DNA from: Streblomastix strix
Taxonomy: Eukaryota
Length of the DNA stretch: 36,135 nucleotides
NCBI GenBank assembly: GCA_008636045.1
Contig: SNRW01000044.1
Span: 1 to 36,135, forward strand
Reading direction: 5' to 3'
The notes beneath the pieces were generated by a model. That model worked only from the letters and a program-made list of their open reading frames with translations. It was not told where the DNA came from and did no database searches. Positions 3,689 to 18,065 of this stretch are shown piece by piece (position 1 is the stretch's first letter; the number at the start of each line of letters is the position of its first letter). The position numbers and the translations under genes were made by a program.

Positions 3689-6600
3689 TCAACTTTAAAT
3701 TAATTATTTACCAATTGGTTAAAGATGTTTAGTGGCATCTAAAAGTTTCACACCGATCTGAAGCAAGCTTTATGTTCTGCTATTGCATTAAATTCTAACT
3801 ATCCAATTAACCAAGTCTTCTCCACTAATTGTAATGCGATTAGGATCAATACCAGTTATACGTATTGCAAAAATATCATAAAACCAGGAGCAGATGACAA
3901 AAGTTCGCTGAAAGAGCTTTGCTAGATTTGAATGATTAGAAAATTATTTTTCATTGGGCATATTCAGTTCGATTGAAGAAGATGGTTAAACTTCTCTAAA
4001 ACCAATTTCAAGTAAACTTTAAATTAAATCCGGATATTTAACTGTTGCTGAACGTGTTAAGGAGATATTAAAAGGAAGATTATGTAGTAAATAGCAAAAA
4101 TCATCTTTATTTAGAGATATTGGAGCATAGAAAGTTTGAAAAGGTAACTTGTATGTAAGTGTTTCAAAATATATTGAGGGAATGTGTAGAATAACTTACG
4201 GAATATGTTAAATATTATTTTATGATTAATTAATTGAAAAATATTTCTTTTATGTAGAATTTAAATTACTCAGAGAAAAAGTATTGCTATTTACATCTAT
4301 TGATTATTAAGAAGGAGGAGGTCTTGGAGTTATTTGAAGTTTATGACACAAATTCAATATGCGATCTTTCTAATTATGCATATTAAGTACTTATGCAAGA
4401 GGTTTTAATTATTTTTATTATATTCCAAACTTTTCCCCATTATAAACACAAATTCCATTATTAAGCCAAATATTTTCAGCTGCTTCTTAAGTTCTGCATA
4501 ATTAATGAATTCCAATTTCAAACTTAACTTCTAATTCACTAATCTACTTTAATATTGCAATTGAGAATTATAAACCTTATGACTCACAATGAGGATGTAG
4601 AATATCAATCTATTAAGAAAGATTTTACATCGAAATATCACAATCACAAATAAATTCCTCATTTTCATCACATTTCTAACTTTACAATAATAAATAATTT
4701 GGATGAGGAATATGAAGAGAACCATCAGGAGATGAATAAATTGGTTTCACAGATATTCCAACTATGAAGAATGGTGTATTGTTTACTAATTAAATATAAA
4801 AAGTAATTGATCTTTGCGATGGAGAAGCTATATGAGTAATAAATATTGAAATTGGGGATCCATTTTCAGGAGATAATAATGAAAAATGTTGTTATTTAAT
4901 TTAATTCATTTGAAGTCCTATTTAAATTTTTTGACGAATGAAGTCATTGAATTCATCTTCTTCATTTCTAAATTTTTCTTCTTCAAATGTATTCTAATCT
5001 GTTATTAATATAAAAGAGGATTCGGAACTTTCTGTTCGTTATTTTGGTTACTATTAACATTCTTTCTGATTTATATGATTATCAATTTCATTAACTGTGT
5101 GATAAAGATCTTCAAATGATGGAATAATTGGAAAAGATTTAAAATTTTCAGGAATGAGGAAATTATAATCACCAGGAGAATCAATTAATCTAAAAAGCTT
5201 TATTGTTCTAAGAATACAAATTTTATCAGTAAAATTAATAGGATGAATTAATAAATTTTCAACGTCAGTAATTAGATGTCTGATTATTTGAATTTATTAT
5301 TAATAATAATTGATGTTCATTTTAATCTGCAAAAGTCTAGAGAACATTTAGAGAATAATTGCAAGTGTGATTCTAATATGAGGTGGAGTAGATTTTGGAG
5401 GAATTATATGAGTTCTAAATGTATCAAACTATTCAATAGAGAAATATTAAGAGACTGCTAGTCCTATCATTTAATTTGATATCGTATCTTCAATTCTAAT
5501 TAAAGGTTAAATATGTTCAATAGAAAAAGGCAATGGAGTGATTGAAATAATAAGAGCAAGATTGTGATTTAATTCTATTTGTCTTTCTGAGATAAGAGAT
5601 GGATGTGTTAGTGTAAGAAACAAAAATCTTATCGCTCCATTTGTTGCATTGAGCCATTAATCAGAATAAAGTAATTCATTAATTTTACTTAATTGCTGAA
5701 AATTACTTTGATTTGCGTTTTATTATTTATTTTCTAAATTAATTAAGTCTTGAGATTATTTACAATATTCTAATGCTTAATGAAATTACAATTATATAAG
5801 ATGGGAAATTAAAGAAGTCAGGTGCTATGAATTATATTTATAAAAAGATATGAACAGTTTCATCATCCATTCACAACAAGCTGGCATTTCTGGTCCCAAA
5901 TGAGGAATATCCGAATATTTAGTTTTGTTTGATGTTTAATCAGATGAAGATGAATAAAAAGAATCTTCAGATTGTTAATCAAAATTAATTTGCTATGGTG
6001 GTGATGATGATAAAATAAGATCATTCAAATTATTAGGTCTTTGTAACATTGAAATAGTATGTCTATGTTCTGATTATTTCTTTTTACGTTTCTTTGGTTA
6101 AGGAGCTTAAAAAACTTCTTCAATTGTTTCTTTATTTTTTATATTATTAATATTAATATTACTATTCATATTTCTACTAATACTATTACTTCTTCTATTA
6201 TTAAAAGTGTTTTCTAGTTTATAACTGCTTAAAGGTGAAGATATTTAAATTTACATGTCTGGAGGAGTGCTTAGAGATCGTAGAATAAATAAATGTTATG
6301 ATTTTTATTCATTTTAATTAAGAGGCATTTATGAGTTATTTGTTGATTATGAATTGTGATGTTTAATATGCAGTGGAGAAATTTCTCGTGGAAGAGGAGG
6401 TATAGGAACAATTTTATTAGATTTATTTGTTTATTATTTAATTCCTTTATGATTATGGTGTTTGATGAAACTAAAAAGTTTGAATTAATTTCTTTTTGCT
6501 TTTGATATAATTTTCATATTTTCTTAATAATTTATTCTTTCTTTTTAATATATTTCTTCCTCTTTTTATTATTATTCCATTTAATTCATCCAAATTATTC

Positions 6601-8221
6601 GTTTTTCTTTTTATTCATTGATCAATGTTAATAATTTTTATGCAGAGGCTTATGGAAAAAATGGAATTGAAGGAATTCTAATTATTAAGTATTCTTCTGG
6701 AAGAGATTATAATTCAAGTTAATTTAAATCTATATATTGGGATTAATTAGACAAGTCTGGAAATGATGAATCAAAATCATAATGATATAAAATATATTAC
6801 GCCAAGTTACGCATTATTTAATTTCTTATTATTTCTAATTTAATTGTACATGAAATATTGAAAACAATTATCAATGTCCTAGAGAAGATTTTAAATATTT
6901 TTAATGTATTTAATGATTAATAATTATAAAATTAATGTTATTTATTATTATAGAATTTTCCATTTTATTAATCAATATTTAATAAATTATTATTCTCCAT
7001 CTTGCTTCCATTTGCATTCCCCAATAATTCATTATTTTCAGCAATTATTAGTTGTGATGTCAGTAAAATGAGAGATTGACAGCCAATATATAAATGCTAA
7101 TCTTGAAATTTATGAATACTTTTTCCAAGCCATAATACAATCATTCGAATATTATTAATCGGAATAAGAGAAATGTCTTAAAGATATTATTTGAAGTTAT
7201 TATCATTATCTTAATTAATTAAATTACATTTCAATGTACTTAATAAAGTTAAAGAAAGAGATAAAATGTTCGTTGGTTACTATAAAGAATAATTAGGCCG
7301 AATTGAAGGGATTAAATTTAATTCAGTTAATATTCTCCGAAATATTGTCAAATAAAGATTATTTCCTGTACATATATTATTTTATGATTCTATTTATTAT
7401 GAGGACTAATTATTTAGATGTTATAATGCTGATTTAAGAATGAAAGATGCTATACGATTAAAGTATATTCGATCATCTGCAGGAAGATGAAGTGATAATT
7501 CAAGAAGAGCTAAAATTGATTATAAATTTTGAGTTCAATAGATCCATTCAATAAGGATATAATTATATGTATTTGATTCATTCCAATAAGATAGGAATTT
7601 GAATAAAGAAGAACTTAAATTCTTGATTTAATTGGATATTGATGTGTGTTAATTATTATTCTTTTCTAAAGGAATACTATTATATTTAGTAATCATTTTC
7701 TTTTATAAAATAGATGTTCCATTAATAACATCAACGATTGATAATAAAAAATAATCAAAAATTTAAATAAAATCTATCAATATTCCTTAAGTAAACAATT
7801 GATATTATAATAAAGGTATTTGAGGATTTAAATATTATGATTAATTTATTTCATTTGAACCCCAATTCGATACTATTCGTTAGAATAAAATTATTATTGC
7901 TGTCCAAACAGGTAATATCCATTCAATATCAATGATGTTTTTATTAGTTATATTGGCATGTTAAATTGTTTTATCGATTATATCATCTTCATTCATTTAA
8001 AATATATCGGATCCTATCTATTATATTGATCTTTTAAATGAAATTTTCCTCGATTTCAAAACTGAGAAAAAAAGTTTTCTCAGGTTATCATTATTCTGTA
8101 ACAATACTTAAATTGTAGTTTAATCGCTTTCTAACATGGAAATAATTGTTTTTGCACAAGTCTTTCCATCTTCTGCGAGAATCTATATACAAATAGAATT
8201 GACAATATTATCATTATCCAT
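3689..8221 (-). CDS. ~1,510-aa adaptin-like coat protein, most like TPLATE (TSET complex large subunit); one in-frame TGA at 7535-7537
   Basis: One 4,533-nt frame under TAR=Gln, interrupted only by one TGA. C-terminal LLSPENGSPISIFITHIAS...ITFYIQLVNNT, LTYKLPFQTFYAPISLNKDDFCYLLHNLP and FVICSWFYDIFAIRITG resemble the TPLATE appendage (LTGSSDPCYVEAYHLA...ITLHLKVLNLT; PYKIPLTELLLPHKISPVEFFRLWPSLP; YAAKTWYGGFVGMMIFG). CDS confidence is high, family call moderate. Confidence 0.65.
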
Positions 8222-16600: not shown

Positions 16601-18065
16601 CTATATTACATAATCATCTTCTCCTTCCTGCATATATCTGAATATTTTACTTATAGAAACATGACATTCAATTCCTCTCCCACGATTCTTACCAATTGGT
16701 TTCATAATCCAAACATTTCTTATTTTATTATTTTCTCTATTATTGCACTATCCTCCAATCCATCCTTATTCTAAATCTAGTTCATAATGTTAATGGTAGT
16801 TAGTGTTAATCCATCTACAGCATCTTTAATGTCCTAATGATTACAATGCAGGTGCATATGTTGGATCATTCAAAGTTGATATTGCTATCTAGATCCTCGA
16901 AATTAGTTTATTAAGTGGAGGAATAGGATATGTAGATGGAGTTACAAGACAAGAAGAAGAATGTTATGATAATTAAGATTAAGGAGATAAACTCATCTAT
17001 TATACATTAAGTTATAATGATAGAGAAGGAATATATATAGGTTATGGCAATGCAGGAGATTTATGAAGAATTATTGGAGCTGCAAACATTGAAGTCTAAT
17101 GAGATCTAATTGGAATTAATGATATATGTTCTGATGGTAAAGGTTGAACAGGTTAAAGTGTTGGTAATGTATTTAATCCAGGATTTGTGACTATTCCCAA
17201 TCCTGAAGATTATTGAAGTGTTAAAGGTGTTGATGGAATAGCAGTAACAGTTTGTGAAATTATGTTTTAGTTCTTCCTTTTGAAACTCTAAGAAACATTT
17301 GTCTTAACATGAAGGAGTACACGTCTCTCAACGCATTCACTACCAATGTCATTCCAATCATCTTCTTACATCTTTTATGCCACTTAATATGAGAAGTGAA
17401 ATCTCTCTACGCTGTATCTTCTTTTAAGCTCTATTTCTGATAATTATTCTTATTAGCTGTTGTTATAGTAATAGTTTGCAATTTGTTTTTCACCTTCTTC
17501 ACATAAGATCCACATATAACTTTCACAGACTATTAATGCTTTAAGTGCAATTGCAGTCTTTGCTGAAAATTTTTCTTATTCTTCTTCACTCATTTCTCTG
17601 CTACTCTCAAAGTCTTTTAAAAAATTCTTTAAAATTTGTTAACATTTGATAAGTCTGAAAATTTAAATAAATTCACGTCTTTCTTCTTTGTCCCTCAGAT
17701 CAAAACATAAAGGAAAGATAGCGTAGTGGTTGATGCCCTCCCAAAATGCATTAGTTCACAAAGAGTGATACAGACCAGATTTTGTTGAGAAGGATGCTGT
17801 GTGAGTGAAGTGGTTTACAAGTTGATTTGGACGCAAAGTTTCGAATGGTATCTCACGAAGACTGCCAGACCAGATGAGATTTGCATCATCTATTCGAATA
17901 TGAGAATAAAATAAAATACAAAGAGTAGTTTTAAAGCATTTCACCTATATCATCACATTCGGTCCATCCTCGTTGGAGCAGAGCATTCTTCACATCGTTT
18001 GAACAATCCCCGTGCCGGATTAGGAAGAATTTCTTCGTTGTAGACTTTGAAACTGATGATTTCAT
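13683..18065 (-). CDS. Tubulin-tyrosine-ligase-like protein, TTLL3/TTLL8 glycylase type, 1,349 codons; exons 18065-17945, 17889-16601, 16504-14783, 14676-14595, 14518-13683; in-frame TGA at 17756-17758
   Basis: VNHFTHTASFSTKSGL, NVWIMKPIGKNRGRGI, VIQKYIERPLLIHGHKFDLRLW, THLTNNAV, GNMW, FEIVGFDFMID, PWIIEINTFP and NTGGWELIY. Four GT-AG introns give 4,050 nt in frame. Confidence 0.9.
15600..15840 (-). repeat. Coding low-complexity Lys/Asp/Glu repeat (DK/EK-rich) inside the TTL domain
   Basis: Tandem GATAAG/GATAAA/GAGAAA-like units on the minus strand encode KDKDIDKDIDKDKEDKK... Confidence 0.85.

What the first reader, a model, noticed from the sequence alone, without database searches (positions are those of the whole stretch)
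3689..18065. Candidate recoding of the last stop codon: in-frame UGA at Arg positions in a UAR=Gln genome
Seen: reading all ten genes (~9,370 codons) I found four internal TGA codons in three genes with no frameshifts: 7535-7537 (-), 9164-9166 (+), 10917-10919 (+) and 17756-17758 (-). TGA also ends every gene. The two sites in conserved domains align without gaps to Arg in human EXO1 and TTLL3, so no intron removes them. Established: codes with all three stops reassigned exist (Condylostoma, Blastocrithidia), but UGA is Trp there. Arg is a known minor UGA readthrough product, and U-to-C editing restores CGA from UGA in hornwort and fern organelles. Inference: this organism may decode internal UGA as Arg or edit nuclear mRNA U-to-C; I know of neither in oxymonads. 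Alternatives are CGA>TGA decay of one haplotype or duplicate segment (all four sites lie in 7.5-17.8 kb) or amplification artefacts.
Basis: partly seen in the sequence, partly recalled or inferred. Interest (0 to 1): 0.93.

Follow-up and report, generated by a model that had tools for sequence, protein, structure and literature searches.

The report
Oxymonad UGA stop at arginine positions
In a termite-gut protist that already reads two of the three stop codons as glutamine, the last stop codon (UGA) sits inside three otherwise intact genes, twice where relatives have arginine, so it is likely read through as an amino acid there; that would be a genetic-code variant my literature searches did not find, but no RNA or protein data could be checked.

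Summary
Observation confirmed. The window is a Streblomastix strix contig (UAR=Gln). Nine modelled genes (9,272 codons) all end in TGA; four further TGAs are internal, in three genes without frameshifts. Two align gap-free to Arg: EXO1 (Arg in both other oxymonads; R/K in 215 of 239 homologs, no Trp or Cys) and TTLL3. The public EXO1 model hides its TGA in a false 57-nt intron. Contigs of DNA run X1 carry all four TGAs; no second EXO1 was found. Neutral decay fits poorly: about 160-200 further substitutions would be expected, yet there are no frameshifts, 58 of 59 conserved EXO1 columns are intact and there is no CpG signature. New: all four internal TGAs are followed by A, against 1 of 9 terminal ones (post hoc p=0.007). 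Limits: only two sites are alignable, one may lie in an intron, no RNA, tRNA, eRF1, second strain or further genome could be examined, and contigs hide alleles. Best reading: a rare, context-dependent sense UGA, likely Arg (about 0.5); rivals are nonsense decay (0.27), amplification artefact (0.1), other-residue readthrough, U-to-C editing (0.06). A strong, cheaply testable lead, not an established code.

The parts
9164..9166 (+). Internal TGA, codon 138 of EXO1, in the nuclease domain; context ATA TGA AAG
   Evidence: R in both other oxymonads, R/K in 215 of 239 homologs; X1 contig 8583-11389 has 0 differences
17756..17758 (-). Internal TGA, codon 85 of the TTLL3/8-like gene; context TTG TGA ACT
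   Evidence: gap-free to R of PDB 5VLQ (LCLNLRNL); X1 contig 15840-18200 and X2 piece 17743-17987 have 0 differences
10917..10919 (+). Second internal TGA in EXO1, in the low-complexity tail (KP*KRSR), 188 codons before the end; context CCA TGA AAG
   Evidence: not alignable; intron candidate scores as coding; X1 contig has 0 differences
7535..7537 (-). Internal TGA, codon 229 of a 1,510-codon orphan ORF; context TAT TGA ACT; weakest site
   Evidence: no homolog; X1 contig 6537-8359 has 0 differences
8700..11486 (+). Exonuclease 1 gene, 3 exons (8700-8778, 8832-9511, 9576-11486), 889 codons, two internal TGAs
   Evidence: 58 of 59 columns conserved at 90% or more match; only S. strix EXO1 among the 240 listed hits
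13683..18065 (-). TTLL3/8-like tubulin ligase gene, 5 exons, 1,349 codons, one internal TGA
   Evidence: (PF03133)
3689..8221 (-). Orphan gene, 1,510 codons if read through, one internal TGA
9125..9181 (+). 57-nt 'intron' of the public EXO1 model (KAA6403940.1); likely false, since it deletes a 19-residue stretch conserved without gaps in both other oxymonads
   Evidence: GC 0.32 and T 0.32 against 0.07-0.27 and 0.43-0.59 in 17 modelled introns
7510..7614 (-). 105-nt GT-AG segment that could remove the 7535 TGA; not favoured, not excluded
   Evidence: intron-like GC (0.22), but donor GTTC is seen in 0 of 17 introns and its score is below all 17
2372..2374 (-). Terminal TGA of ornithine carbamoyltransferase; the one gene-ending TGA followed by A
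   Evidence: homologs end at about this place and none resembles the downstream frame
8294..8690 (+). About 400-nt non-coding segment upstream of EXO1, duplicated at about 12281-12677 (95% over 300 nt)

Best explanation
In Streblomastix strix, where UAA and UAG already mean Gln, UGA ends genes but also stands inside intact genes at former Arg codons, where it is likely read as a sense codon, most likely Arg, when far from the gene end and followed by A. Shown: the DNA, the intact frames, the Arg columns at two sites, the +4 pattern. Inferred: the sites arose as CGA>TGA by the same C-to-T drift that turned most CAA into TAA (533 TAA against 149 CAA); they are tolerated because a release factor already blind to UAR competes poorly at UGA-A away from the poly(A) tail, so that a tRNA-Arg (UCG anticodon with a first-position U:G pair, or a derived UCA anticodon) restores the original residue; decoding is inefficient, so the codon stays rare (4 TGA against 39 CGA and 368 Arg codons) and was not seen in the highly expressed RPL21 and OTC. 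This would be an early, ambiguous stage of losing the last dedicated stop.
For: 4 internal TGAs, 0 frameshifts in 3,748 codons of three genes. 2 of 2 alignable sites at Arg; a random nonsense change would come from an Arg codon with p 0.12-0.24 each, 0.015-0.06 for both. Neutral decay to 4 TGAs implies 158-207 substitutions and, at assumed indel ratios of 0.03-0.1, 3-13 frameshifts (P of none 0.04 or less). EXO1 keeps 58 of 59 conserved columns and no second S. strix EXO1 was listed. X1 contigs span all four sites with 0 differences at depth 20-32. Of 6 displayed coding differences to independent run X3 in these genes, 4 are synonymous (p=0.04). No CpG signature: 3 of 24 displayed transitions at CpG; CpG o/e 0.37-0.61 in the three genes against 0.39 in SEC7. 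+4 base is A in 4 of 4 internal against 1 of 9 terminal TGAs (Fisher p=0.007, post hoc); 6 of 9 terminal are UGA-U, the tightest stop in yeast (PMC4748822). All internal sites are 188 or more codons from the end. Precedent for UAR=Gln with dual UGA in Parduczia and karyorelicts (PMC5304391; 10.1101/2022.04.12.488043).
Against: Only two informative sites, both R/K columns and one resting on a single homolog. X1 may be the window's own source, and its contigs drop alleles: at 12002-12148 X1 shows one version while X2 of the same sample matches the window. The 3,912-codon SEC7 gene with 154 Arg has no TGA and the four sites are weakly clustered (p=0.06-0.08). OTC ends at UGA-A, so +4 A alone does not make sense codons; 19 of 39 CGA are followed by A anyway. 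In yeast Arg is inserted at UGA only at very low rates and UGA-A prefers Trp (PMC4748822). UPF1 is present in Streblomastix (PMC1501061), so internal UGA could trigger decay. The X3 count uses 6 differences from the 40 of 126 rows displayed; without the low-complexity row 16244 it is 3 of 5 (p about 0.10, hand calculation). One deviation from a conserved EXO1 column (L to I) sits right before the TGA. The main text of the Preaxostyla genomics paper has no mention of stop codons, although its authors curated S. strix genes.
Confidence: 0.48

Rival explanations
1. The TGAs are nonsense mutations in a decaying haplotype or a recently inactivated stretch of three neighbouring genes; working alleles exist elsewhere or were lost in amplification.
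For: All four lie in three neighbouring genes within 10.2 kb (p=0.06-0.08); a second sequence version exists at 11.9-13.0 kb and contigs hide alleles; EXO1 sits between 400-nt direct repeats; a 5'-truncated SF3B1 piece at the contig start shows that broken genes or joins occur; Arg codons supply up to a quarter of random nonsense changes.
Against: No frameshifts, conserved columns intact, mostly synonymous differences to X3, no CpG depletion, no second EXO1 listed; X1 and the window agree at every base of long pieces across the three genes; TAA>TGA at Gln should be the commonest route (30-34%) and was seen at neither alignable site.
Confidence: 0.27
2. C-to-T damage or allele dropout during whole-genome amplification of few cells fixed TGA in the data; the living organism has CGA.
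For: All four could be C>T of CGA; every run that covers a site (X1, X2) is from one sample. That the data were amplified is recalled, not shown here.
Against: Two sites need C>T on the + strand and two on the - strand; 4 of 18 CGA/TGA codons in these genes would be hit, a rate that should also break conserved EXO1 columns, which it does not; single unbroken contigs at depth 20-32.
Confidence: 0.1
3. UGA is leaky in this organism and Trp or Cys is inserted; CGA>TGA changes survive only at tolerant surface positions.
For: Yeast UGA-A prefers Trp-tRNA (PMC4748822); dual-use UGA is Trp in the known codes (PMC5304391); the EXO1 column also accepts K, Q, E.
Against: No W or C in 239 homologs at the EXO1 site; efficient Trp decoding should put TGA at Trp columns (78 TGG codons), seen at 0 of 2 alignable sites.
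Confidence: 0.09
4. Site-specific U-to-C editing of nuclear mRNA restores CGA.
For: It explains Arg exactly and a shared context (UGA-A); U-to-C editing exists in some plant organelles (abstracts).
Against: TAA and TAG stand in Streblomastix cDNAs (PMC1501061), so first-position U is not generally edited; the 12 listed papers concern organelles; no shared motif beyond +4 A.
Confidence: 0.06

Closest known systems
Parduczia/karyorelict ambiguous code (UAR=Gln, UGA=Trp or stop); Condylostoma code
   Same: UAR=Gln; UGA both ends genes and stands in conserved domains; internal UGAs lie far from gene ends.
   Different: Columns here are Arg/Lys, not Trp; the codon is rare (4 of 9,272); metamonad, not ciliate; translation not shown.
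Streblomastix strix UAR=Gln code (Keeling and Leander 2003, cited in PMC13002328; the paper itself was not held)
   Same: Same organism by the public protein record P0122; 632 in-frame TAA/TAG; TGA ends every gene.
   Different: That code treats TGA as stop only; the public model of EXO1 removes the internal TGA with a false intron.
Blastocrithidia and Amoebophrya codes with all three stops reassigned
   Same: No fully dedicated stop codon; gut or parasitic lifestyle; AT-rich.
   Different: UGA is Trp there; in Blastocrithidia UAR is Glu and terminates (PMC5304391, abstract of PMC12153298).
Near-cognate UGA readthrough in yeast (UGA-N rules)
   Same: The +4 base modulates termination; UGA-U is tightest, matching 6 of 9 gene ends here.
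   Different: Yeast inserts Trp or Cys, Arg only at very low rates; efficiency is far too low to sustain essential genes.
Reverse (U-to-C) editing in plant organelles
   Same: Would turn UGA into CGA (Arg).
   Different: Organellar; UAR is retained in Streblomastix cDNA.

Membership tests
Ambiguous stop/sense nuclear code, Parduczia/karyorelict type | UAA and UAG encode Gln | tested here: met
   533 TAA and 99 TAG in frame in nine genes; PMC13002328 passages
Ambiguous stop/sense nuclear code, Parduczia/karyorelict type | UGA terminates genes | tested here: met
   9 of 9 genes end in TGA; OTC end matches homolog ends
Ambiguous stop/sense nuclear code, Parduczia/karyorelict type | In-frame UGA within conserved domains of intact genes | tested here: met
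   Two sites in DNA; small sample
Ambiguous stop/sense nuclear code, Parduczia/karyorelict type | In-frame UGA aligns to Trp | tested here: not met
   0 W in 239 homologs at the EXO1 site; R at the TTLL site
Ambiguous stop/sense nuclear code, Parduczia/karyorelict type | UGA present in mRNA and translated through | not testable with these tools
   No RNA holder listed
Ambiguous stop/sense nuclear code, Parduczia/karyorelict type | Sense UGA depleted near gene ends; short 3' UTRs | tested here: inconclusive
   All four are 188 or more codons from the end, but n=4 and no UTR data
Ambiguous stop/sense nuclear code, Parduczia/karyorelict type | Altered eRF1 and a UGA-reading tRNA | not testable with these tools
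   No genome held; no tRNA gene in the window
Selenoprotein UGA | UGA aligns to Cys and a SECIS element follows | tested here: not met
   0 C in 239 homologs at the EXO1 site; no Rfam match of note in the window
U-to-C mRNA editing | mRNA has C where DNA has T | not testable with these tools
   No RNA run; TAA/TAG retained in cDNA (PMC1501061)
Pseudogene or decaying duplicate | Frameshifts and loss of conserved residues alongside the stops | tested here: not met
   0 frameshifts in 3,748 codons; 58 of 59 conserved columns kept
Pseudogene or decaying duplicate | An intact second copy or allele exists | tested here: inconclusive
   None among listed hits or X1 contigs, but the assembly may be incomplete and contigs drop alleles
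Intron-removed stop | GT-AG segment of intron-like make-up spans the TGA | tested here: inconclusive
   Not met for 9164, 10917, 17756; open for 7535

The most novel reading that the evidence does not exclude
Streblomastix strix has a nuclear code with no dedicated stop codon in which all three stops are read as the amino acids of their C-starting twins (UAA/UAG=Gln like CAA/CAG, UGA=Arg like CGA), UGA being Arg or stop by context, with UGA-A read through and UGA-U/C terminating.
Probability: 0.42. Interest if true: 0.92.

Novelty: new variant of a known kind. Interest (0 to 1): 0.68.

Why it matters
In the papers I could read, dual-use nuclear UGA is always Trp, and searches listed no report of UGA=Arg or of internal UGA in oxymonads. 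An Arg reading would need first-position decoding or a new tRNA, would catch a stop codon early in its capture (1% of Arg codons), and would test whether loss of two stops predisposes to losing the third. It would also mean that the public S. strix proteome carries false introns and truncations, as shown here for EXO1. The claim can be settled with existing public assembly and transcriptome data.

Tried and rejected
OTC as a fifth internal TGA: its stop is UGA-A followed by a 48% GC open frame, but the 120 listed homologs end at about that place and none resembles the extension; rejected. Own genome: not held. RNA: no RNA holder listed; no evidence either way. Independent strain: X3 (other study, about 98% identical in the eight listed pieces) had no listed piece across any TGA and most of its rows were not displayed. 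More Streblomastix DNA: metagenome scans with the orphan protein (none; most patterns contained Gln, which TAA would defeat) and EXO1 (11 loci of 32-47% identity, not analysed further); prokaryote genome scans (none). Orphan gene: no Pfam hit, 0 hits among 1.84 billion representatives for residues 1-607, single-sequence fold uninformative (pLDDT 34). CpG or RIP-like hypermutation: not supported. Degraded second EXO1 behind the repeat at 12.3-12.7 kb: none. Selenocysteine: rejected. Earlier findings of this scan: four look-ups, nothing. Keeling and Leander 2003 and the 2019 S. strix genome paper were not held; their text and supplements could bear on novelty. Supplements of PMC10703272: 11 files searched, no 'stop' or 'in-frame' (one file cut when stored).
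Full report
Identity and gene content. The window is 27% GC with long frames only under table 6. A search with the EXO1 exon returned a public protein 'putative Exonuclease 1 [Streblomastix strix]', KAA6403940.1, on a contig of 36,135 nt, the window's length; next best are Monocercomonoides exilis and Blattamonas nauphoetae at 55-56%. 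Streblomastix is known to read TAR as Gln (PMC13002328, passages seen). I modelled nine complete genes: RPL21, OTC, an orphan, EXO1, MPP6-like, TTLL, RPA34-like, PPWD1-like and a Sec7 protein (labels from Pfam, with 'PPWD1' recalled for the WD40-cyclophilin), 9,272 codons in all. All nine end in TGA; four TGAs are internal; no frameshift is needed.

The four sites. EXO1 9164: the stretch [18 protein letters not shown] aligns without gaps to both oxymonad orthologs, which have R at the stop; the column is R 74, K 35 of 120 and R 121, K 94, no W or C, of 239. The public model removes these 19 residues with a 57-nt GT-AG intron whose make-up is unlike all 17 introns I modelled; I take it as a prediction artefact. 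TTLL 17756 aligns gap-free over 88 residues to R of PDB 5VLQ, the only homolog available for that stretch. EXO1 10917 is in an unalignable tail, in a basic cluster. The orphan site 7535 has no homolog and could be removed by a 105-nt segment, which scores below every modelled intron but has intron-like GC. So the Arg claim rests on two sites.

Are they in the DNA? Four runs were listed, none RNA. Contigs of X1 cover 6537-8359, 8583-11389 and 15840-18200 with no difference from the window at depth 20-32; X2 also matches over 17743-17987. All 7 A>G and all 3 A>T differences of X1 are displayed and none is at the two minus-strand sites, so no CGA or AGA allele was recorded there. Caveats: X1 may be the source of the window, X1, X2 and X4 are one sample, and contigs drop alleles, as seen at 12002-12148 where X1 and X2 disagree. 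X3, from another study, is about 98% identical in its listed pieces but none of those spans a TGA; 86 of 126 difference rows were not displayed.

Decay model. About 2% of single-base changes in these genes create TGA, so four neutral nonsense changes imply 158-207 substitutions, d about 0.014-0.018. With assumed indel ratios of 0.03-0.1 this predicts 3-13 frameshifts; none is seen. EXO1 matches 58 of 59 columns conserved at 90%; the expected 1.9-2.4 hits make this test weak alone, and the one deviation (L to I) is adjacent to the TGA. Of six displayed coding differences to X3 in these genes four are synonymous (p=0.04; 3 of 5 without one low-complexity row). Under the X3 spectrum a random TGA comes from Arg with p=0.24 and from Gln TAA with p=0.34; both alignable sites being Arg has p=0.015-0.06, or 0.24 if CpG mutated tenfold faster. 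CpG hypermutation is not seen: 3 of 24 displayed transitions are at CpG and the three genes are not CpG-poorer than SEC7. No second S. strix EXO1 was among 240 listed hits, nor a remnant behind the duplicated promoter. For decay speak the weak clustering (p=0.06-0.08) and the TGA-free SEC7 gene with 154 Arg.

Context. All four internal TGAs are followed by A; terminal ones by T (6), C (2) or A (1); Fisher p=0.007, 0.018 without the orphan site; this was noticed after the fact, and 19 of 39 CGA are followed by A. The exception, OTC, is a true stop, so UGA-A can terminate; position relative to the mRNA end would have to matter too, as modelled for ambiguous ciliate codes (10.1101/2022.04.12.488043, passages seen). 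In yeast UGA-U is the tightest stop, UGA-A prefers Trp and Arg is very rare (PMC4748822, passages seen), which supports a +4 effect but not Arg.

Mechanism. Gln codons here are 78% TAA among NAA and 64% TAG among NAG, the outcome of free C-to-T drift. TGA against CGA is 4 to 39, so TGA is still selected against. I infer a tolerated, inefficient sense use: CGA>TGA, read by a tRNA-Arg through a first-position U:G pair or a changed anticodon, against a release factor weakened by the UAR change. None of tRNA, eRF1, mRNA or protein could be examined. Editing is less likely because TAA/TAG stand in cDNAs, and UPF1 is present, a cost for any internal UGA (PMC1501061, passages seen).

Known cases and novelty. 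Dual-use UGA with UAR=Gln is known from Parduczia and karyorelicts, with Trp (PMC5304391, passages seen). This window meets the UAR, terminal-UGA and internal-UGA features, fails the Trp feature, and translation is untested, so it is not filed there. Searches (listings and abstract starts only) showed no UGA=Arg nuclear code or internal UGA in oxymonads; PMC10703272 has no 'stop codon' in its main text or 'stop' in its held supplements; PMC8629427 names Streblomastix only in a reference. The 2003 and 2019 primary papers were not held.

Verdict. Real feature, not explained by introns, poorly explained by ordinary decay, decoded residue unproven. Sense UGA as Arg about 0.48 (0.42 for the full context-dependent code), decay 0.27, artefact 0.10, other-residue readthrough 0.09, editing 0.06. 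Interest 0.68; 0.92 if confirmed.

Noticed in passing
window 1-128 (-): 5'-truncated SF3B1 fragment (matches human residues 1092-1134, E about 1e-14) with no upstream coding part in 130-1500; a split gene, a relic or an amplification chimera.
   Followed up: partly
window 8294-8690 and 12281-12677: About 400-nt non-coding direct repeat (95%) flanking the EXO1 + MPP6-like block, 3,987 nt apart; it ends near the EXO1 start codon.
   Followed up: partly
window 11925-13047: Run X1 contigs carry a second version (about 1-3% different) of the MPP6-like gene and the repeat, while X2 matches the window: two alleles or copies in one sample.
   Followed up: partly
window about 35860-35920 (-): Box A- and box B-like motifs (TGGTCAAGTGG, GGTTCGAGTCC) around an AATTTTTTGAG run; tRNA-like or Pol III-type element with no ARAGORN or Rfam hit and no stable fold.
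   Followed up: partly
window 2312-2371 (-): 60 nt of 48% GC right after the OTC stop, unlike the 10-25% GC behind the other eight stops; no homolog extension, fold not above shuffles.
   Followed up: yes
window 9125-9181 and about 10239-10426: The public EXO1 model uses a false intron at the first TGA and leaves the frame at about 10238, ending at 474 residues, before the second TGA.
   Followed up: yes
window 3689-8221 (-): 1,510-codon orphan with no Pfam hit and no homolog for its first 607 residues.
   Followed up: partly
window 23428-35409 (-): Sec7-domain gene of 3,912 codons with one 11.5-kb exon, inflated by Gln/Asn/Ser-rich insertions.
   Followed up: no
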